From NCBI GenBank assembly GCA_951406725.2, contig OX597822.1:116808001-116872000 (forward strand): a stretch of 64,000 bases of DNA, written 5' to 3'. Of this stretch, positions 23,683 to 62,751 are shown one piece after another. The notes under the pieces were generated by a model. The model saw only the letters and a list, made by a program, of their open reading frames with translations. It was not told the DNA's origin and ran no database searches. A program made the translations under genes and the position numbers. The first letter of the stretch is position 1, and the number at the start of each line of letters is the position of its first letter. The stretch comes from Octopus vulgaris. Lineage: Eukaryota.

Positions 23683-23835
23683 TTTTTTTTCAACACGTAA
23701 ATACTGAACGGTATTTATAAAGGATAAAATCCTTTTAAGGGCAGAAAAATTTGCCAGCAACCAACAAATTCTTCTGCTCTTAAAAGGATTTTATCCTTTA
23801 TATATACTGTTCAGTATTTACGTGTTGAAAAAAAA
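23683..23835. repeat. about 70-bp-arm inverted repeat (foldback/MITE-like)
   Basis: ttcaacacgtaaatactgaac...aatttg versus caaatt...gttcagtatttacgtgttgaa. Confidence 0.85.
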
Positions 23836-28447: not shown

Positions 28448-31400
28448 ATCATCATCATCATCATCGTTTAGCGTCCGTTTTCCATGCTAGCATGGGTTGG
28501 ACGGTTCTACTGGGGTCTGTGAAGCCAGAAGGCTTCATCAGGCCCAGTCAAATCTGGCAGTGTTTCTACGGCTGGATGCCCTTCCTAACGCCAACCACTC
28601 CGTGAGTGTAGTGGGTGCTTTTTACGTGCCACCCGCACTGGTGCCAGACAGAGCTGGCAAACGGCCACGAACGGATGGTGCTTTTTATGTGCCACTGGCA
28701 CGAGGGCCAGGCGAGGCTGGCAACGGACACAAAACGGGGCGGTGCTGGCAACGGTCGCGAAACGGAAAGTTCTCTTACATGCCACCGGCACTGGTAACAC
28801 ATCTGCAATTTCCATTGATCGATTTCCATTGATCGATTTCGATTCTGATCCTCACTTGCCTCAACGGGTCTTCACAAGCAGAGTTTTGACATGCCACCGG
28901 CACTGGTAGCACATCCGCAATTTCCATTGATCGATTTCGATTCTGATCCTCACTTGCCTCAACACGTCTTCACAAGTAGAGTTTTGTGTCCCAAGAAGGG
29001 AAGGTATGCATATGTAGGCCGGCTCCATCCCATGTAGAAGGCCACGGGTTATGGACTCACTTGTCCTGCCGGGTCTTCTCGCGCACAGCACACTTCCAGA
29101 GGTCTCGGTCTCTAGTCATTTCCTCAGTGAGACCTAAAGTTCGAAGGTCGTGCTTCACCACCTCGTCCCAGGTTTTCCTGGGTCTGCCTCTTCCACAGGT
29201 TCCCTCAACCGCTAGGGTGTGGCACTTTTTCACACAACTATCTTCATCCATTCTCGCCACATGACCATACCAGCACAAACGTCTCTCTTGCACACCACAA
29301 CTGATGCTTCTTAGGTCCAGCTTTTCTCTCAAGGTACTTACACTCTGCCGAGTGTGAGTACCGGCATTACACATCCATCGGAGCATACTGGCTTCATTTC
29401 TAGCGAGCTTACGCATATCCTCAGCAGTCACGGCCCATGTTTCACTGCCATGTAGCATGGCTGTTCGTACACACGCATCATACAGTCTGCCTTTCACTCT
29501 GTGCGAGAGGCCTTTTGTCACCAGCAGAGGTAAGAGCTCTCTGAACTTTGCCCAAGCTATTCTTACTCTAGCAGTTACACTTTCAGCACACCCGCCCCCG
29601 CTGCTGACTTGGTCACCTAGGTAACGGAAACTATCAACTATTTCTAGTTTTTCTCCCTGGAAAGTGACGGAAGTTGGTCTCAGAGCATTTTCAGTGTTTA
29701 TTGTTCCTGAGCATCTGCCACATACAAAAACCATCTTCCTAGTTAGCCTTCCTTTGACATTGCTGCATCTCTTATGTGTCCATAGCTTACACTTGGTGCA
29801 TCTTATAGAGTTTCTACCTACACCTTTTCTACAGATCGAGCAGGGCCATCTACCTGAAGGTGTTTGTGATTTGTCTACCTTCCTACTGATTACGACTTTG
29901 GTTTTAGCTAGATTGACTCTGAGGCCCTTCGATTCTAATCCTTGTTTCCACACCTGAAACTTCTCCTCCAGTTCTGATAGCGACTCAGCAATTAGAGCAA
30001 GGTCATCAGCATAGAGGAGCTCCCAAGGGCATCCTGTCTTGAATTCCTCCGTTATTGCCTGGAGGACTATGATAAATAGGAGGGGGCTGAGTACTGAGCC
30101 TTGGTGGACTCCTACCTCTACCCGGAATTCTTCACTGTACACATTTCCAACCCTCACCCTACTAGTGGCGTCCCTATACATGGCCCGCACAGCTCTCACT
30201 AACCATTCATCTATCCCTAGTTTCCTCATTGCCCACCAGATAAGGGATCGGGGGACCCTGTCGAAGGCTTTCTCCATGTCAACAAAAGCCAGGTACAGGG
30301 GCTTATCTTTGGCTAGGTATTTCTCCTGCAGCTGCCTTACCAGGAATATAGCATCAGTAGTACTTTTCCCTGGCACAAACCCAAACTGCATCTCATCTAA
30401 ACTAACTCTCTCTCTAATTAGTTGGGCTATGACCCTCTCCGTAACCTTCATCACCTGGTCCAACAGCTTGATACCTCTGTAGTTATTTGTATCTAGGGCA
30501 TCACCTTTACCTTTGTAGCAGTTGACTATTATACTGCTACACCAGTCATTGGGTATGACCCCTTTGTGTATCACCTGATTAACTATACGGGTGACTAGGC
30601 TATAGCCGACACTACCAGACATTTTGAGCATCTCTGCAGTGATTCCTGATGGGCCTGGGGCTTTCCCTGTCTTCATGCTTCTAATTGCCTTAGCTACCAC
30701 GGAACTATCAACTCGGATAGCTGGTCCCTCTGTTGGGTCAACATTCGGCAGACTCTCTTTATCCCATTCATTTTCTTCATTCAGCAACCTTTCATAGTGG
30801 CATCTCCAAACCTCTCTCTTTGCATCCTCATTTAGCGCAAGTGAACCATCTTCCATGCGAACACACTTCTCTCCTACCACATCACGATTCTCTCTCACAC
30901 ACTGTCTTGCAACACGAAACACCTCCAGTCTTTGGTCCTCACGGCGCAGAACATTGGCAAATTTTTTCTTATCTGCTTCCCCTCTGGCTAAATAAACCTG
31001 TCTCCTAGCTTCTCTTTTGGCAGTCTGATACAATCCCCTGCTACCCCCATTTTTCCAGACCTTCCAAGCCTGTCTCTTTTCTCTAATAGCCCTGTCTACA
31101 ATATTGTTCCACCACCACGTTATTCTAGGTCGAGAGGGGACTTTGCACCAGCCACAGATCTGGTCAGTGGCTCTCAGCAGGTTGTCCCTTAGAAACGTCC
31201 AGCTGTCTTCTACCCCCTGTGATGCTCTATCCCCTTCTACTTCGTCAGAGGCTTCAAGTAATATGTCCCTAAATCTCTGTCCATTTGCAGGATCTTTAAG
31301 CTTCCAGATCCTTCTTCTCCATATTTGTCGTCTTCTGGTTGTCCTCCTAGTCCTGATCCTAAAGTCACTAACTACCAGTCTATGTTGTGGGGTACATTCT

Positions 31401-31867
31401 TCACCTGGGAAGGTTTTGGCATTTATAAGCAGCCATCTCTCCCTTTGCCTTGTAAGGATGTAGTCAATTTGGCTGGTATGTTGGCCCGATTGGTAAGTGA
31501 CTAGGTGGCTGGTAGGTTTCCTGAAGTTAGTGTTGCAAATCATAAGATTATTTGCATCGCAGAACTCCAGCAGCCTGGTTCCCTCCTCGTTGCGGGAGCC
31601 ATAGCCATAGCCTCCATGTACGCCATGGAAGCCCCCAGCATGTCGTCCAACGTGACCATTGAAGTCACCAGCCACAAAGATAAGGTCTCTGTCATTCATC
31701 AACGAGGTAGTCTGCAGTAGAGTGTCATAGAATCGGTCTTTCTGTCCATCGGGTAGCCCCGACTGAGGAGCATAGGCTGATATAATGGTTGCTAAACTAT
31801 GATGAAGCACTAATCTAATCTTAAGTATTCTGTCACATACTCTGATTACCTCAATTACTTTATCTAC

Positions 31868-31870
<3 letters not shown>
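28448..31870 (-). mobile_element. RTE-clade LINE, 5'-truncated, young
   Basis: APE+RT ORF, a repeat-containing 3'UTR and a (GAT)n tail. Both ends abut (TA)n. Confidence 0.95.
29057..31870 (-). CDS. RTE ORF: partial AP endonuclease + reverse transcriptase with an internal C4HC3 zinc finger
   Basis: 937 codons with no stop. Motifs YAPQ, GDFN, IDY, QHRLV, QFGF, DMEKAFD, QGSVLSP, YADD, YLG and GRGRP..W. The listed N-terminal MHICIYIY derives from the microsatellite. Confidence 0.93.
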
Positions 31871-31904
<34 letters not shown>

Positions 31905-31911
31905 TGCATAT

Positions 31912-32220
31912 AAATGGTATTTTTATAAGCTTAAAGCTTATAGCAATCATTGTGCAAAGGACTAAGGAAAATAGTCTAATAATGGGGCATAGAAGCCCTC
32001 GCCAGAAAAAAGTAGGCTTTCCTGTATGCATAGAACTCGAACACACATTTTTTTGTTAACATGACTCAGTGTGTCACCAATTACACCAGTGAACCAGCCT
32101 GCTCCTTTCTGTCAAATAACAGGCTGGTTCGCTGGTGTAATCGGTAACACAGTCGCGTTAACAAAGGGATGTGCATTCGAATCCCACACATTCAGTAAAG
32201 CTTATAAAAAATACCATTTT
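31912..32220. repeat. palindromic element with head-to-head tRNA-like heads
   Basis: 31-bp inner stem 32071-32101/32120-32150 and outer match aaatggtatttttataagctt / aagcttataaaaaataccattt. Confidence 0.7.
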
Positions 32221-38084: not shown

Positions 38085-40345
38085 TCTTATTATAAAAGCA
38101 GATTTTATCTGCCTCCCTTTGTCAGTTATAGAAATCTACAATATAGGATTTCTTCAATTACAATTTACTTAGCATTTTTAAGAGTAGAATGCATCGGGTT
38201 TTGCCAGGTCCACTTTTTAAAATTTAAATTCCAATTAAGCAAAATTTACAGAAAACTCACATTCTGGTGTGTATGTCAAATGCTTTTCTTAATGTGTTTT
38301 ACACCACACGCACACGCACACACACAGTGTGCAACGAATAAAATGAAAGTAATTCACCTTTTGTAGTGAGTGACTCTTTCAGTCTGCCACTTCCTCTTTA
38401 CACACATAGACACGCAAATATATAAATAAAATTGTAAGCTAACGTGCGTGTGTGTGAGTGTGTGTGTGCATGTGTGTGTGTGAGGGTGCGTGTGTGCGTG
38501 TGTGTGTGTGCGTGCGTGCGCGTGCGTGTGTGACAGGAAAGTATTTTAGGACGAATATAAGACCTATATCGGCGATGTTTCGCTTGTCGTAGCACAGGTT
38601 TCCGTCGATTTCCGTAAAAAAATTATTTTTTTTACATAAGTAATGAGAGCGAAAGAGACTAAGAGAAAGCGATTGTATGACAAGGGAAGTTCTTTTGAAG
38701 TTACCGTGCATGGGACGCATTAATGTACATGTATGTGTGTGTGTGTGTTTGATGGAGTGTGGGAGACAGACAGTATGTTGTGTAAGTGAAGTGCTTCTGT
38801 TAGTGTGTGTGAAGAGACAGAGAGAGTAATGTGTGAAAGAGAGAGATAACTGAAATTTTTTACTCGGTTTATGTGTATATGTATGTATGCATGTATGTGT
38901 GTGTGTGTGTGTATGTATGTGTGTGTGTATGTATGTATGTATGTATGACCGATTCAGTGTTTACATTTTTTACGGAAATCGACGGAAACGTGTGCTACGA
39001 CAAGCGAAACATCGCCCCTATATCCAAGTAGCAGAAAGATCGCCCAAAAGTGTATATAGATATTTAAATGTATTTATATATTCAATACACAGATGTATGT
39101 ATAATGTGTGTATATATTTCCATACACGTAACCATTCACTCCGCACAAAGTTTTTTAGGATGAAAATAAGATCTAAAGTTATCTCTAAGAAACAGAAAGA
39201 TCGCCCAAAAGTGTATATAGATATATAAATCTATTTATATATTCATCTATGCACACATGTATGTATAACGTGTGTGTATATATTTCCATAGAGGTAACCA
39301 TTCACTCCATACAAAGTTTTTTAGCACGAAAATAAGATCTAAAGTTATCTCTAAGAAACAGAAAGATCGCCCAAAAGTGTATATAGATATTTAAATGTAT
39401 TTATATATTCATCTATACACACATGTATGTATAATGTGCGTGTATATATTTCCATAGAGGTAACCATTCAATCCATACATAGTTTTTTAGGACGAAAATA
39501 TTTATATATAAAAGAAAGGTTGTGTGTCTGTCTACTCCGATTTAGATTCCTAACTACTCCCACATTTTGCGATGCAGTTTAACCAAAACCGGGTATCTTA
39601 TAGTCGTGATTCATATCGAGCCCTTCTGGGTATTAGCGCGCGTCTACGATGAGTCTATGATTTTACAAATAATTTACCATCATTTTTTCCCATTTTAATG
39701 CATATTTTTTTAAATAAACGGAAGTAACTCTCAAACTTCACACCAATATGCGTGCTCATATGCGACGTAATATCACATCAGCAGCATTTCCTCACACCCT
39801 CCTTGCACTTGGCGAAGGCAAAATACCAGGGGATGAAAATGGTAATATTGCCATCGATTCCATTTGTACCATTGTTAAGACGCCTTCTGATCTCAGAGAT
39901 GCAGTGTTCCCAGATCTACAAGCTAATTATCAGAATATGGATTGGATTGGCAAAAAGGCTATACTGGTCCCGAGGAATAAAACTGTTCACCATATTAATG
40001 ATGAAATGCTAAAACTCATTCCTGGGGAAGTCTATGTATATCAGTCTATCGATACAACTCCTGACCCAGAGGACGTCATCAACTATCCAATAGAGGTACT
40101 CAATTCCTTTGAGCACCCCGGACTACCACCACACTTTCTCAAACTTAAAGTTGGTGCCCCTATAATGCTCATCAGAAATTTGGTTCCCCCAAAACAATGC
40201 AATGGCACACATTTGATCGTTAAGTCCTTATCTCCCACCGTAAGCTTATATCAATATTTGCCTGAATAATCATCATAATTCAGTGCAATCATTAACAGTA
40301 CTTTCAAGCAATTCAGCCCCGAGCAATGCCGGGCAATTCTGCTAG
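38085..40345 (+). mobile_element. composite non-autonomous Helitron
   Basis: A|TC 5' end and a CCCG-agcaatgc-CGGG hairpin followed by CTAG|T at the 3' end. Contains a helicase fragment, about 160-166-bp tandem units (39033-39500) and a second 5'-end module near 39500. Confidence 0.75.
39748..40269 (+). pseudogene. Helitron RepHel PIF1-like helicase fragment
   Basis: NMR...AILVPRN...HHIN...EVLNSF..PGLPPH.LKLKVGAPIMLIRNL....CNGT. Confidence 0.88.
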
Positions 40346-42915: not shown

Positions 42916-43196
42916 TAATAATTATAAACTTAAGTTTATAAGCACTCACTGTATATTGGTTGTAGAAAATAGTTTAATAATGGGACCTATAAGCCCTTGA
43001 CAAAAAAAAAAAAATGGATATTAATACTTGTGGGAATCGAACCAGCATTTATGAAAATAAGAGGTGGGGGTTCAATTCCAACATGTACTAATAACAACTT
43101 TTTTTTTTTCTATCCAGAGCTTATATGCCCCAGTATTAAACTATTTTCCATAGCCAATACACAGTGAATGCTTATAAGCCTAAGCTTATAATTATA
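42916..43196. repeat. imperfect palindromic element with divergent tRNA-like B boxes
   Basis: Arms of about 128 bp, with ggaatcgaacc / ggttcaattcc next to the centre. Related to 31912-32220. Confidence 0.75.
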
Positions 43197-44822: not shown

Positions 44823-45934
44823 TATACGCACACACACACTTTGTGGACAAAAATCATGTTGTGACGTTATATGTACCTACATATTGTAGACCAAGATATG
44901 TCAAGTTATAATGTAAGGTAATATAGCATATATTTAACTGGATACTAATCTTAATAATGGAATTCTTGACAACCAAGGCCATTCTGACACTAAAGAAGAA
45001 CAATAATACAAGGAGGGAGTTGAACAAAAAAGAAATATTTTATTGAAGTCGTCCTAGAGTTTTGGTCATAAAATGCGTGTGTCTATTTGCCGGCCTATTG
45101 ACTAGTACAATGATTGAATAGAGTGGTATGTGACTAATGAACACCGAATTAGCCATTCTCATACACAAACAGATAATAACAGTAATTAATCTGTCAGTAA
45201 ATGAACAGCTGCTCTGGGTTTCTCGTTAATAACATTTGTTGAACTTTTTAAATAAATATACCGTGAAGATGATGGTGGTGATGATGATGATGAGCTAACA
45301 ACAATAAAAAGTGCAAAAATTCTGTTATAGAGAGGAAAGGCTTTAATGTGTCTACAACAGAGTAGAAGGGCTCCTGTTGCAGCCTTGAATACATTATCAG
45401 AGATTTTTAATAAGAATATCTTCTCAAATAAAATGTTGGATAAAACAACTTGCAGTATTTGCTCTGGATCTTTGCATTTTGAGTTCAAATCACAACAAGG
45501 TAAACTTTGCTTAACTGGTACTTATTTTATCAACCCCACCAAAAGGATGAAAGGCAAAGCTGAACTCAGTGTAATTTAAACTCAGAATATAAAGACAGAC
45601 AAAATGCCACTAAGCATTCTGCCCGGTGTGCTGACAATCCAGTTAACTTGCCATTTTGGTGATTCCATTATATTGATTTCAAATTTTGGCACAAAGCAAG
45701 TTCAAGAAAGGGGTTAAGTCAATTACATCAACCCCAGTATTTCACTGGTACTTATTTTATCAAATCCAAATGGATGAAAGGCAAAGCTGACCTCAGTCGA
45801 ATTTGAACTCGGAACATAAAGATGGACGAAATGCCACTAAGCATTTTGCTCAGCATGCTAACGATTCTGCCAGCTTGATGCCTTTGTGATTTCATAATAT
45901 TAATGTGACATGATAATACATATGTGACTTGAAG

Positions 45935-46165
45935 GGCAGTGAGCTGGCAGAATGGTTAGCACGTCGGGCGAAATGCTTAGCGGTATTTCGTCTGTCGCTA
46001 CGTTCTAAGTTCAAATTCCACCGAGGTCGACTTTGCCTTTCATCCTTTCGGGGTCGATAAATTAAGTACCAGTTAAGCACTGGGGTCGATGTAGCTGACT
46101 TAAGCCCTTTGTTTGTCCTTGCTTGTCCCCACTGTGTTTAGCCCCTTGTGGGCAATAAAGAAATA
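45935..46165 (+). mobile_element. SINE family A, full length
   Basis: Near-identical to 7369-7600. Confidence 0.8.
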
Positions 46166-49924: not shown

Positions 49925-49925
<1 letters not shown>

Positions 49926-50654
49926 TAGCAGTATCGCCCGGCGTTGCTCGGGTTTGTAAGGGAAATAACTATATAAGCATTTTTAGAGATGTAAAGCATA
50001 ATAGCCATCTCAATATGGCTAACCACAAAGGGAGGGTGTTACTGTAGCTTTTTACGTTCTGAGATTTAATAATAAATTTTTAGAAAGTTACTTCCCTTAT
50101 ATATGCCAAAAATGCATTAAAAATGGGGAAAATTGATGGTAAATTTTTTTTTTAAATCGTAGACTCATTGTAGACGCGCGCTAATACCCAGAAGGGCTTG
50201 ATATGAATCACGACTATAAGATACCCGGTTTTGGTTATATATATATACTAGCAGTATATATATATATATACTAGCAGTATCGCCCGGCGTTGCTCGGGTT
50301 CGTAAGGGAAATAACTATATAAGCATTTTTAGAGAGTTATAGCCAAAAAATAGCAAAAAAATGCATTAAAAATGGAAAAAAAATAATGGTAAATTTTTTA
50401 AATCGTTGACTCATCGTAGACATTTTTAGAGAGTTACTTCCCTTATATAATAGCGAAAAAATGCATTAAAATGGAAAAAAATGATGGTAAATTATTTTTT
50501 AAATCGTAGACTCATGCTAATACCCTGAAGGGCTTGATATGAATCACGACTATAAGATATCTGGTTTTGGTTAAACTGCACCGCAAAATGTGGGAGTAGT
50601 TAGGAATCTAAATCGTAGGAGACAGACACACAACTTGACTTTTATATATAAAGA
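49925..50654 (-). mobile_element. non-autonomous Helitron with duplicated 3' ends
   Basis: TC 5' end at 50654. Hairpin+CTAG ends at 50271 and 49925, plus a stub at 50248. Inserted in (TA)n. Homologous to 39500-39710. Confidence 0.82.
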
Positions 50655-52445
50655 TATATACACACATACACATACCTTTTATCCTTTACTTGTTTTAGTC
50701 CCATGCTGGGACCTCACCTTGAAGGGTTTTAGTTAAATAAATCGACTCCAGGACTTATTTTTTAAAGCCTGGTACTGATCCTATCGGTGTTTTTTGCCAA
50801 ACCACAAAGTTATGAGGATGTAAACACACCAACACCGGTTATCAAGTGGTGATGGTGGGGAAGAAACACAAACACACACACATGCACATACATACATACA
50901 TACAACGGGCTTCTTTCAGTTTCCATCTACCAAATCCAGTCACACGGCTTTTATCAGCCTGAGGCTATAGTAGAAGACACTTGCTCAAGGTACCAAGTAG
51001 TGGTACTGAACCTGGAACCATGTGGATGAGAAGAGAGCTTCTTACCACGAAGCCATGCTCGATATAAGGACAGATTTAATGTAACCTATAAAGCATTCTT
51101 CTTCATTAAAGATATAAACATCATCATCATCATCATCGTCATTCAATGTTCACTTTCCCATGCTTGCTTGGATTAAATGGAATTCACAGAGGCAGATTTT
51201 CTGTAACTAGATGCCTCTCTTGTCATCAACATTCACTTGTTCCCAAGCAAGGTAATATTCCTCCCTGGTCAAACACATTTACAGAGGGAATTAGACACCG
51301 CTTAAATCACTTACGACTATCATATGTTTGTTTGCATTAAGTGGCAACATTTGTCTCCACTTAAACACAGATGTTCTGTTAGAACAAACTATACTGTGGT
51401 AGATGTCGTGAGAAAAACCCAGACATTGGTTTTTGGTGCAAAATGCACTCTTGTTTATATCACTAGCGGGGAGGAAAATCCCCACCACCTCGAGCACTGA
51501 GACCATCTGATCATGTGATCTCAACCTTCCTTGATATTGTCAACGATGGATACTCTAGTGCTAGAAATAGCAGCAATATGCAGAACAGGTACTAGTGTTG
51601 CAATCAGCTAGTAAGCCTGTTAAAAAGTATTTATTAGTGACAGAGGCAGTATTGATACTGAGTATGCAATGTGAAGACAAGGGAATACACACACACAAAC
51701 ATGCATGCATACATACATATACGATGGGCTTCTTTTCAGTTTCCATCAACCAAATTCATTCACAAGACAAGACACTTGTCCATGGTGCTGCGCAGTGGGA
51801 CTGAACCTAGGACCAAGAGCTGCAAAGTGAATTTCTTAACCACATACCTATGCCTGTACCATAAAGTATGTTCTTATCTGTGTATCTAAAACATCGACCA
51901 TGTTTAGACAAACAAATATGGCTACTTTCTATCATTTTCTGATAAGAATTCTTTCAACCAGCTTCTTCAGGTAAATGAAAATTCCATTGTTTCTGGCAAC
52001 TGGTTCTGACCTAACAGACTCTATGACGATGCTAATGGTGTTAAGTGTTAGGAGTTTCTAGTTTTTATTTCCATCCCTGTCGCCGCCTCCATCTGTATAT
52101 TCTTGGCAATGTTGTTGTTGTTGTTGATTATCCTGATTAACGTATTCATCACATGACCACGAAATAAATTACAACACAAACAAGAGAAAACGCCTCGTTA
52201 ATGTATCACTTTCACAGAAACAAATACAATATTGTGTTTTAAATGAAACCACTTAATGTTAGTTCAGTTATCCACACACACGTTTGTATATACACATATA
52301 TACACACACATGAATATATATATACAAGGTGGTACTGAATAGATCCTGGTTTTAAGGGTATTATGAAAGGCCTGGTTGGAGGCCCAACTACCCACATTTC
52401 CATTTATCTACAGCCAGGAACTTTTCAGCATCCCCTCATGTGTGT

Positions 52446-56501: not shown

Positions 56502-58379
56502 GGTGGTGATGGTATATGGATAAGGCTGCTGTGAGAGATCATCTAAGATTGTGAGCTTTTAGCATTTCTGGCAACATAGAAGATTTTATCATACTTAAGA
56601 CTTTCTTTTTCGACAGTGAATCAGAGTAACTTTAGTCGCTGGTGAAACCTATTTTTGAAAATAATACTTACAATGCAACTGAGATTGTAACAGCAAGAGA
56701 TAGACTGAAATTAACAGTGGCAATTGCTAGCGCTGGTGAGTGGGGAGGAATAAATGGTGTTTATCATCTTGATTTTACTGCCTGAGTAGAGAGTGACTAC
56801 CTGTCTGATATGTAACAGAATATTTGTTTACAAAAAATGGCTGAGAAATATCTCTGGTTTAAAATTTTACGCATAACACGGAAAAACAAACCACAGACAC
56901 ACACACACAATAAAATAATAAACAGGCAAACAACTGGATTCAGGTCAATTTATGATATGTGTTTAGACATGAAGGCAAAACTGAATATTACAAGAAAAAA
57001 CTTCAAAAGAGATAGATAAAAGATCAATTGAGGGATGTTCAACAATGCTCATGGTATATGCTAGTAATCTCCCGGAACAGTTTATACTGGTATTAGGTAA
57101 AGCTGGACACATTCTGAGTTCAAATTCTGCTGAGGTCGACTTTGCCTTTCATCCTTTCGGGGTCGATAAATTAAGTACCAGTTACGCACTGGGGTCGATA
57201 TAATCAACTTAATCCGTTTGTCTGTCCTTGGTTTTCCTCTGTGTTTAGCCCCTTGTGGGTAGTAAAGAAATAGGTAAAGCTGGACATCATAAGTAGAATC
57301 CAAAGGTGAATGAGAAGAAAAGAGAAAGGTAGGAAGGTGTGCAGATACTTCCTTACAGCTGTTTCAAGAACAGATGTGCAGAGATGATGCATTTCCCTGC
57401 AAATGATCAGCATCCAACATTGTCGTTGCTATCTATTCCATCATCAGAGGGAGAATGAGATAGAGCCTTAATAAGAAGTAATGATATACTAATAACAGGA
57501 GGTAAACAAAGGTGAACTTAAAAATAAAAGAGAAGCACAGAATACACGGTCATAATAAGCGGGAGATAGAAAGTAACAAACACGACAAGGAACAGATATG
57601 TAAAATTCAAGAGTTAGAGGAATGTATAGAGAAAGAAGTGGCCAGTGTCTATACAGGTATGGAAGCAGGATGCTAAGTGGGATGGTGTGAAGACCATGGG
57701 TGGAATAGCAATGGCATGATGAGCTCTAGCAGCAAAGACAAGGAATAAATGTTAGCATTTGCCCAACAACCTTCGCAAAACTATTTGTTTATAGTGATCA
57801 AATGTATGTGCCGTACATTAGCTTGCTTCCTCCATCAAGTTGAAGTTGCCTGAGCAAGTGCATGGTGTGCCATGCGTAACGTGTTGAAGTGGTTATGGAG
57901 CAACGTGAGATGTTTTGCTCAAGAACAGAACACACCAGCAGGTCTGGGAATAGAAACCACAATCTCAGGATTGCGACTGCAGCACCTTACCCGTTCGGTT
58001 AGAGTGTTGCAATAGCATAAGAGGTAAGTAAATTACAATTAGCAGAATGCTAGACTTTCCACCAGGGTGAATTGATGGGAAGTATGTGAAAGGTGAAAGT
58101 CTTTCTTTTTCGGGGGGGGGGGGGGGCATATGAGATAAAGTATAGCCACATGGCACTAGCTGCATGGCATGGTGGCCGATGGGTGTGAGGAGGGAAAGAG
58201 TGATGCTAAGCAGAAGAGAAGAGAGGCAAGAGGTCTGAGAGATATGGTAAGTATATAGTCATGAATCTGCTGACTGCAATGGGATTCAGGTTTATAAGTT
58301 TATAACCTATATGATACGTATAACATATACATATACACCAATAAGATATCTATATATATATATACACACACACACACAC

Positions 58380-60571
<2,192 letters not shown>

Positions 60572-62154
60572 CATCATCATCATCATCATCATCATTTAGC
60601 GTCCGTTTTCCATGCTAGCATGGGTTGGACGGTTCAACTGGGGTCTGGGGAGCCCGAAGGCTGCACCAGGCCAGTTGAACCGTCCAACCCATGCTAGCAT
60701 GGAAAACGGACGCTAAATGATGATGATGATGATGATGATGTATATATATATATATATACATATATATACATACATATATATACATATACACTGCATTGAC
60801 AGGTGTGCACAGACATATAGGCAGAATAGTTGGTGGAGGTTCGTTAAATTGGTATGGAGCTTTCTGGAATATACGTATAGCTTTCGCTAGTGGAAGCAAA
60901 ACTCTTATTTAAAGGTTGATTCTTTGGAACAATCATATGTGATTGTTTAAAAAAGGCTGGAACGACAATGCTAAAACATATTTGAAACAAAGCACAAAAC
61001 AGCATAACGGATGGGTAAATAAGCATCCCTTAAAGTGAAACAACGCATTGGCAGGTAAACAAAGGCCTCAACAAATAGAAGAGAGGGAAGGGAACATCAC
61101 CTTTCAAGTAATTCAGAATTGGTAAAGGTAAGCTTGCCAAAGTTTAATGCTGATTAAATATGGAGATCAAGATTGTTTGGTATTGGATATTCATTGCGTA
61201 CAGTTTTCCTAGTCAATTAATCACAGTGGCAGGTGGACAGACAAAATATATGAATAGACAAAATCTTTTCCCTTTTAGAAACAGGATTAAAAAATTATGG
61301 AACACCCTACATACAAAAGAACTATGTCCATTTACGTCCGTTTATGCAGGAAGTTTGGAGAAAACATTTGGAGCATGACCATCTTGGGGGCATAAGTAAA
61401 GTGTGTGTAAAGTTTGGTGAAAATTGGTTGAGAATTGTGGAAATGTACGTGTTCAGTATTCCTAATCAATTTAATCACCACTGCTGGTGGTGGACAGTGG
61501 AAATAAATGAATAGAGAAAATCCTTTCACTTTTATAAAAAGATTAAGAAAGTATGGAAGACCCTACAGATTATAAAACAGCTGAGTAATGCAAATGAATA
61601 GGAACCATCTACTGTTGGTTTCCTATTGCTCTAGAGACCCCAATATTGATTTTTTAAAAAAATCTAAGTAGCCTGTGTTTGGGTCTGGGATATGAAACAG
61701 CTGTGTATAAAATTTTAAAGAAATTGGATGAAAGATGTATGTATAGGATACTGAGGTACATTATATTTTTATAGACACACACTCACAGAAAACTTCAATT
61801 TTATAGATATTAGATAGACACACACACACATATATAGATAGATATATACATATACATATATATATAGATATATACATATACATATATATAAATAGATATA
61901 TACATATACATATATATATATAGATATATACATATACATATATAGATATATACATATAAGCATTAATAAATCTCCGAACGAGGTGTAAACAGTAACCGCT
62001 CGACAACGTAAAGTGTACTAGCCACTGGGGGTGGGTGTTACTGAAGCTTATAGCCCCAGGAGATCATCGTCTCCAGCTGGCTTTAGACACACTTTCTGTG
62101 CCCTTCTGGTATTTGCAAAGGGAGGTCATCTCCTCTTGAAAACCTAAGTGATAC

Positions 62155-62197
62155 ATACGGACTATAGTTTCGAGGTATTTGCCTCTCGTCAACGTAC
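62155..62197 (-). ncRNA. hammerhead ribozyme motif (U3 variant), left arm of palindrome
   Basis: GTACG-TTGACGA-GAGG(caaata)CCTC-GAAACTATAGTC-CGTAT. Confidence 0.65.
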
Positions 62198-62374
62198 GGT
62201 AATCACCGATTTTCGATTAGGGAGGCCTGTTTGCGAATATCTATTTAATGTTTTTCTCAGCAACCACTGTCACTGATTCAGACAGTTTTTCTAAATCAGT
62301 GACAGTGGTTGCTGAGAAAAACATTAAATAGATATTCGCAAACAGGCCTCCCTAATCGAAAATCGGTGATTACC

Positions 62375-62417
62375 GTACGTTGACGAGAGGCAAATACCTC
62401 GAAACTATAGTCTGTAT
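62375..62417 (+). ncRNA. hammerhead ribozyme motif (U3 variant), right arm of palindrome
   Basis: Same motif with stem I GTACG/TGTAT. Confidence 0.62.
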
Positions 62418-62751
62418 GTATCACTTAGGTTTTCAAGAGGGGATGACCTCCCTTTGCAAATACCAGAAGGGCACAGAAAGTGTGTCTAAAGCCAGCTGGA
62501 GACGATGATCTCCTGGGGCTATAAGCTTCAGTAACACCCACCCCCAGTGGCTAGCCACATTCAGATGGCTAGTACACTTTACGTTATATACATATACATA
62601 TATAATATATACATATACATATATATATGATATATACATATATATACATACACACACACACACACATATATATAAACATACATACATACACACACACACA
62701 CACATATATATAAACATACATACATACACACACACACACACATATATATAA

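What the first reader, a model, noticed from the sequence alone, without database searches (positions are those of the whole stretch)
62005..62585. Young giant palindrome carrying two outward-reading hammerhead ribozymes
Seen: arms of about 270 bp are almost identical. Each contains stem I, UUGACGA, a 4-bp stem II, GAAA, a palindromic ACUAUAGU stem III and a GUC site, and both read away from the centre. Known: Penelope-like elements and retrozymes carry minimal hammerheads with palindromic stem III that are thought to cleave as dimers, and they often insert as inverted terminal repeats. Inference: this is a non-coding ribozyme retroelement. Read-through RNA from either strand would form a long hairpin that competes with ribozyme folding. 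The C3-to-U core change is shared by both arms.
Basis: partly seen in the sequence, partly recalled or inferred. Interest (0 to 1): 0.72.

Follow-up and report, generated by a model that had tools for sequence, protein, structure and literature searches.

The report
Ribozyme repeat inserted head-to-head, Penelope-style
This 630-base palindrome is two near-complete copies of an abundant non-coding repeat joined head to head, each with a hammerhead-ribozyme motif that has one unusual core base; it is likely the insertion scar of a retrozyme moved by Penelope-like retrotransposon enzymes, a partnership proposed before but not well documented.

Summary
There are 265-bp arms and a type I hammerhead motif in each arm, reading outward, with C3 replaced by U. 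The palindrome is not the element itself. Contigs from four public runs (2110, 1797, 759 and 138 laid) show a high-copy family. In other copies the 46-nt stretch outside the left arm runs into the base where the right arm starts, which implies a head-to-tail unit of about 355 nt with no ORF: retrozyme-like. The right arm is unit 1-309 and the left arm is unit 18-355. A head-to-head pair with a one-sided tail in an AT-rich target is the published Penelope-like insertion signature. A second small insertion at 49990-50075 has nearly the same two ends. U3 is the family state (no C3 at 5% depth or more in any run), and a paired change keeps stem III palindromic. Most likely two cDNAs were primed from both strands of one break, on template uncut at the ribozyme site, and joined by microhomology. 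Cleavage, expression, the partner element, the host species and the central junction in independent reads are not shown. Verdict: a new variant of a known kind, moderate interest.

The parts
62277..62585 (+). Right arm: unit positions 1-309 of the repeat, sense on +, no tail
   Evidence: start fixed by loose ends before 62277
61959..62278 (-). Left arm: unit positions 18-355, sense on -, lacking 18 nt between 7-nt direct repeats (gap placed at 62017/18 to 62024/25)
   Evidence: loose ends at 62018 and 62024 carry the missing letters in other copies
61959..62004 (-). 46-nt one-sided tail (unit 310-355); part of the family, and in other copies directly followed by unit position 1
   Evidence: depth continuous across it (table 2); X3 loose end matches it 26 of 30
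62154..62198 (-). Type I hammerhead motif, U3 core; predicted cut after C17 at 62160
   Evidence: RF00163 28.3 bits, E 1.4e-5 on 111 nt; numbering
62374..62418 (+). Type I hammerhead motif, U3 core, G-U as first pair of stem I; predicted cut after C17 at 62412 (unit 136)
   Evidence: RF00163 25.5 bits at 62375-62417
62277..62282 (.). Inversion junction: 2-nt exact, 5-of-6 imperfect microhomology between the arms
61947..61958 (+). Left copy of a candidate 11-12-bp target-site duplication in TA/CA microsatellite (weak)
   Evidence: background 8-13% of position pairs
62585..62596 (+). Right copy of the candidate target-site duplication (weak)
49990..50075 (.). Second, older two-ended insertion of the same family (antisense unit ~247-306, then sense unit ~333-352) between 9-bp direct repeats at 49979 and 50076, inside a Helitron-like repeat
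   Evidence: 49 of 60 nt identical to the right-arm end; tail match beats 2000 of 2000 shuffles

Best explanation
The palindrome is two near-complete copies of a high-copy, non-coding repeat joined head to head, and it is likely a single insertion of a ~355-nt retrozyme-like unit made by the enzymes of a Penelope-like retroelement. Shown: arm structure, hammerhead motifs, high copy number, a tail that belongs to the family, no ORF. Inferred from loose-end consensus of 6 and 3 contigs: the unit is head-to-tail. Inferred mechanism: an endonuclease cuts both strands of an AT-rich site; each 3' end primes reverse transcription at one of two preferred start points 46 nt apart (unit 309 and 355). 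Both cDNAs read through the ribozyme cut site, so the template was uncut or religated (tandem or circular). The two cDNA ends are joined through a short microhomology. The hammerhead is predicted to cut only as a dimer in tandem RNA and probably weakly (U3-G8 wobble, or U3-A8 in 20-41% of depth). At this locus it is predicted to be silenced by the long hairpin, so this copy is likely a dead end.
For: High copy: 2110, 1797, 759 and 138 contigs laid at 80% or more in four runs from three organism labels. Head-to-tail: letters before 62277 in X3 (6 contigs) match the tail end 26 of 30, next best window match 20; in X7 (3 contigs) 18 of 30 overall, the last 12 letters agreeing with X3 at 11. Unit 355 nt, 44% GC, longest ATG frame 30 codons, circular fold z -2.7, 0 of 100 shuffles as good. 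Hammerhead has canonical helix sizes, as in retrozymes, rather than the minimal form of PLE repeats (PMC7229834, PMC4209133). A head-to-head inverted copy with a 30-40-bp tail on one end is the described PLE signature (PMC8557442; PMC3846280). A purified PLE nicks and extends both strands, starts at two sites bounding the tail, prefers AT-rich DNA and uses uncleaved RNA (PMC11167929). A second insertion in the window ends within 3-4 nt of the same two points. Both arms share 4 states that are rare in the family (62050, 62137, 62209, 62225; each 9% of depth or less in the 3 larger runs), so one source. Stem III: changes at 62164 and 62165 have matched depth in all 4 runs and keep the palindrome. 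The predicted best two-copy fold is the double hammerhead for 18 of 24 palindromic and 0 of 156 other arrangements of the six central bases.
Against: No autonomous partner was found: no genome is held and no PLE ORF appears in the window's ORF list. The head-to-tail join rests on 2 of 24 loose-end rows shown, with 360 rows not shown; no tandem array was seen whole. No contig or joint confirms the central junction (table 5: none), and no run holds half the words (best 0.40). The tail (46 nt) is longer than the 30-40 bp in the papers read. The target-site duplication is weak (8-13% background). At the 50-kb site the neighbouring Helitron copy has the same 9-mer twice at the same 97-nt spacing, so that duplication may be older than the insertion. 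Selection on the stems is weakly shown: all 5 listed stem I/II changes keep a pair, but two lie in a G-U pair, so this is expected about 1 time in 8. G8-to-A lies in a CpG and could be decay. The dimer energy gain itself was not special (91 of 180 permutations as good). In Xenopus 8 of 9 tested retrozyme dimers did not cleave.
Confidence: 0.6

Rival explanations
1. Same family, but the inversion arose by self-priming or fold-back of one strand (the antisense self-priming idea of Arkhipova et al. 2013), with later trimming of one end, and not from two primers.
For: The 17 nt unique to the right arm would form the loop, with a 5-of-6 microhomology. Shared rare states are expected if one arm is copied from the other. 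The model is proposed in PMC3846280. A nearby 69-nt-arm palindrome of another repeat looks like a fold-back.
Against: The arm that would be the copy (18-355) is 46 nt longer than its template (1-309). A cDNA primed at the right flank and folded back would copy flank, not tail, and the 100 nt outside the arms are not mirrored (18 of 100). The 50-kb insertion has two non-overlapping pieces with the same two ends, which fold-back cannot make.
Confidence: 0.15
2. The arms are two 5'-truncated pseudo-LTRs of an autonomous Penelope-like element: an ordinary PLE scar with no separate retrozyme.
For: The architecture is that of Pen2a_Av and other PLEs. Depth falls towards the unit's 5' end as with 5' truncation. 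U3-A8 cores occur in Schistosoma PLEs.
Against: The only listed loose ends upstream of unit position 1 are tail-like, not coding. The hammerhead has canonical helix sizes without the extra base after A9 typical of metazoan PLE motifs. The tandem of the unit has no frame over 53 codons.
Confidence: 0.15
3. The palindrome is itself a functional or mobile unit: a two-ribozyme element or a hairpin/small-RNA locus (closest to the first reader's reading).
For: Near-perfect 265-bp hairpin predicted; both motifs nearly intact.
Against: The family has one hammerhead per unit. No strand-changing joint was listed in four runs. Youth alone explains the intact arms (0.7% divergence).
Confidence: 0.05
4. 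Assembly or library fold-back artefact.
For: No independent contig spans the junction; best word share 0.40.
Against: Each arm has family sequence the other lacks (17 nt, 18 nt, 46 nt). The arms differ by 2 substitutions. The flanks are not mirrored. Both ends match those of a second insertion.
Confidence: 0.04

Closest known systems
Metazoan non-LTR retrozymes (Cervera and de la Pena 2020, PMC7229834: parts 2-3 of 6 and passages read; Li et al. 2026, bioRxiv 10.64898/2026.07.22.740005: parts 1-3 of 5 read)
   Same: Canonical-sized type I hammerhead with short palindromic helix III; unit of 150-450 bp (mussel 350-390 bp); GC under 50%; no ORF; many copies; proposed to be moved by PLEs.
   Different: Core has U3 throughout the family (G8 or A8 as partner). 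This copy is a head-to-head pair with a one-sided tail; the words 'inverted' and 'opposite' do not occur in the main text of the 2020 paper. Circular RNA and cleavage are not shown here.
Insertion units of endonuclease-positive Penelope-like elements (Pen2a_Av, PMC3846280, passages; PMC8557442, passages; PAc, PMC11167929, parts 1-2 of 4 read)
   Same: Head-to-head 5'-truncated inverted copy, tail on one end only, AT-rich or microsatellite target, 8-10-bp duplications, hammerhead in the repeat, two reverse-transcription start sites bounding the tail.
   Different: No RT/GIY-YIG ORF; tail 46 nt; the tail leads back into the unit start instead of into an ORF; hammerhead not of the minimal type.
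Twin and dual priming of L1 (PMC2837659, passages read)
   Same: Both strands of the target prime cDNA, giving two inverted pieces inside one duplication; the 50-kb insertion has the classic inversion-plus-deletion form.
   Different: No poly(A) priming; on a repeated or circular template the product would be a palindrome, not a non-overlapping inversion.
Hammerhead core variants U3-A8 (PMC3088659 section 8; PMC4209133)
   Same: U at position 3; A8 in 20-41% of family depth gives the known natural pair.
   Different: This locus and most of the family depth have U3 with G8, a wobble for which my searches found no paper.

Membership tests
Type I hammerhead (RF00163) | Three stems around the core, open stem I | tested here: met
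   All 45 model positions aligned, no non-standard pair marked
Type I hammerhead (RF00163) | Conserved core including the C3-G8 pair; Rfam gathering score | tested here: not met
   U3-G8 here; 28.3 and 25.5 bits against 34. It is filed as a core variant, not a canonical member
Type I hammerhead (RF00163) | Self-cleavage after C17 | not testable with these tools
   Needs an in vitro assay
Non-LTR retrozyme | Head-to-tail repeat unit of 150-450 bp | tested here: met
   355 nt, inferred from loose ends of 6 and 3 contigs; no whole array seen, so support is modest
Non-LTR retrozyme | No ORF, GC under 50% | tested here: met
   Longest ATG frame 30 codons, GC 44%; no tRNA
Non-LTR retrozyme | Many genomic copies | tested here: met
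   759-2110 contigs in each of three large runs; depth is not a copy number
Non-LTR retrozyme | Target-site duplication longer than 4 bp | tested here: inconclusive
   11-12 bp candidate in microsatellite, background 8-13%; 9 bp at the 50-kb site with a caveat
Non-LTR retrozyme | Expression as linear and circular monomer RNA | not testable with these tools
   No holder is on record as RNA; only contigs could be laid
Autonomous Penelope-like element | ORF with RT and GIY-YIG endonuclease between the repeats | tested here: not met
   No ORF in or beside the insertion; a partner elsewhere in the genome could not be sought
Penelope-type insertion unit | Head-to-head inverted 5'-truncated copy with a tail on one end | tested here: met
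   Arms 1-309 and 18-355; same two ends at 49990-50075

The most novel reading that the evidence does not exclude
This insertion is a snapshot of twin priming on one uncut tandem or circular retrozyme RNA by a Penelope enzyme. One cDNA began at unit 309 and stopped at unit 1, within a base of where the other began (unit 355), a coincidence of about 5 in 355 if stops were random. Because the template repeats, the product is a palindrome. If this holds across the family's thousands of copies, it would explain how Penelope head-to-head inversions and one-sided tails arise, give insertion-site evidence that animal retrozymes are moved by PLE enzymes, and show a very successful retrozyme family with a non-canonical U3 core. 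The same adjacency would also follow from a unit-length linear RNA with ends at 1 and 355, which I cannot exclude; the other arm also stops near position 1 (at 18).
Probability: 0.3. Interest if true: 0.62.

Novelty: new variant of a known kind. Interest (0 to 1): 0.42.

Why it matters
PLEs are named as the likely helpers of animal retrozymes, but in the parts of the papers read this rests on co-occurrence and sequence kinship. How PLEs make tandem and inverted structures is listed as open. A short, abundant, repeated unit that lands with the PLE signature makes both questions countable in one genome: where the two ends fall, and whether one arm stops where the other starts. The family-wide U3 core also offers a natural test of whether cleavage matters for spread. 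The palindrome as such is an ordinary PLE-type scar.

Tried and rejected
No genome is held, so no copy count or partner search was possible. Pattern scans found nothing: viral contigs 0, metagenome contigs 0 twice. No RNA holder was listed; X11 is only guessed to be RNA, and its 138 contigs are not used as evidence of expression. The host was not identified: the LINE protein at 29057-31930 has no named close relative (best 54% identity); 'octopus-like' is my recalled impression of the repeats. The miRNA-family Rfam hits over the centre are far below their gathering scores and reflect the hairpin. No tRNA head. A Helitron origin of the arms was rejected: the 60-nt match at 49991-50050 is a family piece inserted in a Helitron-like repeat, absent from the neighbouring copy. 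Dimer energy gain was not discriminating (91 of 180). Lunse et al. 2017 on dimeric hammerhead variants is not held and may list this motif or core. One supplementary file of PMC4209133 could not be searched, and the supplements of the 2026 preprint were not seen. No earlier scan finding matches by sequence or genome.

Full report
Observation. The palindrome is real in the sequence: arms 62018-62282 and 62290-62554, 265 nt, 99% complementary. Over 274 aligned bases they differ by 2 substitutions, and the left arm lacks 18 nt between 7-nt direct repeats. Each arm holds a type I hammerhead motif reading outward. Rfam RF00163 scores 28.3 and 25.5 bits, below its gathering score of 34, with full-length alignment, consensus loop II and one core change, C3 to U. 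A strict descriptor gives 1 hit per strand in the window, against 0 of 20,000 arm shuffles and 0 in 20 window shuffles.

Setting. The window is animal DNA rich in TA/CA microsatellites, with an intact APE-RT-PHD LINE frame and a Pif1 fragment. I take it for cephalopod DNA from recall only; a protein search did not name the host. If it is an octopus, Penelope-like elements cover 6.83% of the O. vulgaris genome and 31 families are recently active (PMC13282606, passages and supplement search). No genome is held.

The family. Twenty listed runs hold part of the stretch, none half of its words (best 0.40). I laid four runs, all contigs, on 61956-62312: 2110, 1797, 759 and 138 contigs at 80% identity or more. 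Depth is continuous over the 46 nt left of the left arm, so this tail belongs to the family. Loose ends at 62018 and 62024 carry the 18 nt that the left arm lacks, so that is a deletion. Loose ends before 62277 in X3 (6 contigs) match the tail end 26 of 30 and stop one base from it. In X7 (3 contigs) the match is 18 of 30, concentrated at the junction end. So in other copies the tail runs into the base where the right arm starts. This implies a head-to-tail unit of 355 nt, 44% GC, longest ATG frame 30 codons, circular fold z -2.7. Only 24 loose-end rows were shown and 360 were not; no whole array was seen. In unit terms the right arm is 1-309 and the left arm 18-355, joined at a 2-nt exact, 5-of-6 imperfect microhomology.

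The ribozyme in the family. The A-to-G rows listed at 5% depth or more number 5, 7, 7 and 5, equal to the totals of table 1, and none is at 62192. So C3 is under 5% in all four runs and U3 is the family state. G8 becomes A in 20-41% of depth, giving the U3-A8 pair known from nature (PMC3088659 section 8; PMC4209133), but it lies in a CpG and may be decay. Of 13 listed variant rows in 62150-62200, 4 are in loop II, 5 in stems I and II (each keeps a pair with the reference partner, expected about 1 in 8 by chance), 1 is A8 and 3 are in stem III. Two of the latter have matched depth in all four runs (1, 23-24, 13 and 64%) and together keep the palindrome. The third alone would break it; it may belong to a shorter-palindrome subfamily seen in loose ends. 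Sixteen further rows were not shown. A monomer folds best as a non-hammerhead structure. Two copies fold as a double hammerhead, which holds for 18 of 24 palindromic and 0 of 156 other arrangements of the six central bases, although the energy gain alone was not discriminating (91 of 180). In a transcript of the whole palindrome stem II has pair probability 0.0. All of this is prediction; cleavage is untested.

How it landed. A head-to-head 5'-truncated copy and a 30-40-bp tail at one end are the described signature of endonuclease-positive Penelope-like elements (PMC8557442, passages; PMC3846280, passages). Purified PAc protein nicks and extends both strands of AT-rich DNA, starts at two internal sites bounding the tail, and does not need ribozyme cleavage (PMC11167929, parts 1-2 of 4). 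Here the insertion sits in a TA/CA microsatellite with a candidate 11-12-bp duplication that is weak evidence (background 8-13%). An older relative at 49990-50075 consists of antisense unit ~247-306 and sense unit ~333-352 between 9-bp repeats. Its two ends lie within 3-4 nt of the two ends of the palindrome. The neighbouring Helitron copy has the same 9-mer twice at the same spacing, so that duplication is uncertain. Both arms of the palindrome share four states rare in the family, so they come from one source, and both run through the predicted cut site at unit 136. I infer two cDNAs primed from the two strands of one break at unit 309 and 355 on uncut or religated template, joined by microhomology. 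The right arm stops within a base of where the left arm starts, as twin priming on a tandem or circular RNA would give (PMC2837659, passages); a unit-length linear RNA with those ends would give the same. Simple fold-back cannot supply the tail or the non-overlapping 50-kb insertion.

Artefact. No contig or joint confirms the junction. But each arm has family sequence the other lacks, and the flanks are not mirrored (18 of 100).

Known and new. It works like a metazoan non-LTR retrozyme inserted with a PLE signature. It is not an autonomous PLE (no ORF) and not a canonical RF00163 member (U3, below cut-off). PLEs were proposed as helpers of retrozymes (PMC7229834; 2026 preprint). Full-text searches of the open library for 'retrozyme + palindrome' (0 papers), 'Penelope + twin priming + inverted' (2, neither on this by their listing), 'octopus + hammerhead ribozyme' (5 papers, 4 listed, none on such a family by their listing) and 'hammerhead + U3-G8 + wobble + cleavage' (0) found no description. 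Subscription papers, notably Lunse et al. 2017 (not held), were not seen. Earlier AI notes of this scan report the same head-to-head, one-sided-tail form as common for PLEs in other genomes; they are leads only and lower the surprise of the palindrome itself.

Verdict. Real, a new variant of a known kind; interest 0.42. The value lies in the countable test it offers of how retrozymes and PLE inversions are made.

Noticed in passing
window 49979-50086: 86-nt two-ended insertion of the same family inside a Helitron-like repeat. An X7 loose end (7 contigs) is identical to part of it, so the Helitron may have spread this piece further.
   Followed up: partly
window 60573-60739: Perfect palindrome with 69-nt arms (69 of 69) and a 29-nt loop, made of two ends of a common repeat with (CAT)n/(ATG)n pointing outward, in microsatellite; looks like fold-back or dual priming of another retroelement.
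   Followed up: partly
window 62428-62460 (+) and 62112-62144 (-): A decayed second half-hammerhead inside the unit (5' core half plus a 4-bp stem II with 6-nt loop, then an 8-nt palindrome but no GAAA). Family variants at 62137, 62139 and 62140 would restore the core half in up to 11-24% of depth.
   Followed up: partly
window 62064-62111: This part of the unit has about 5-10 times the summed contig depth of the hammerhead region in all four runs and conserved small hairpins; it may be shared with a larger repeat family.
   Followed up: no
window 29057-31930 (-): Uninterrupted 957-codon LINE frame with endonuclease, RT and PHD matches; best relatives 54% identical.
   Followed up: partly
window 39718-40269 (+) and 39480-39735: Pif1 helicase fragment next to a Helitron-like end related to the repeats at 49925-50660.
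   Followed up: no
window 45694-46124, 42918-43195, 23683-23835: Three older inverted pairs of other repeats (77-89% identity).
   Followed up: no
window 58350-60570: About 2.2 kb of continuous TA/CA microsatellite.
   Followed up: no
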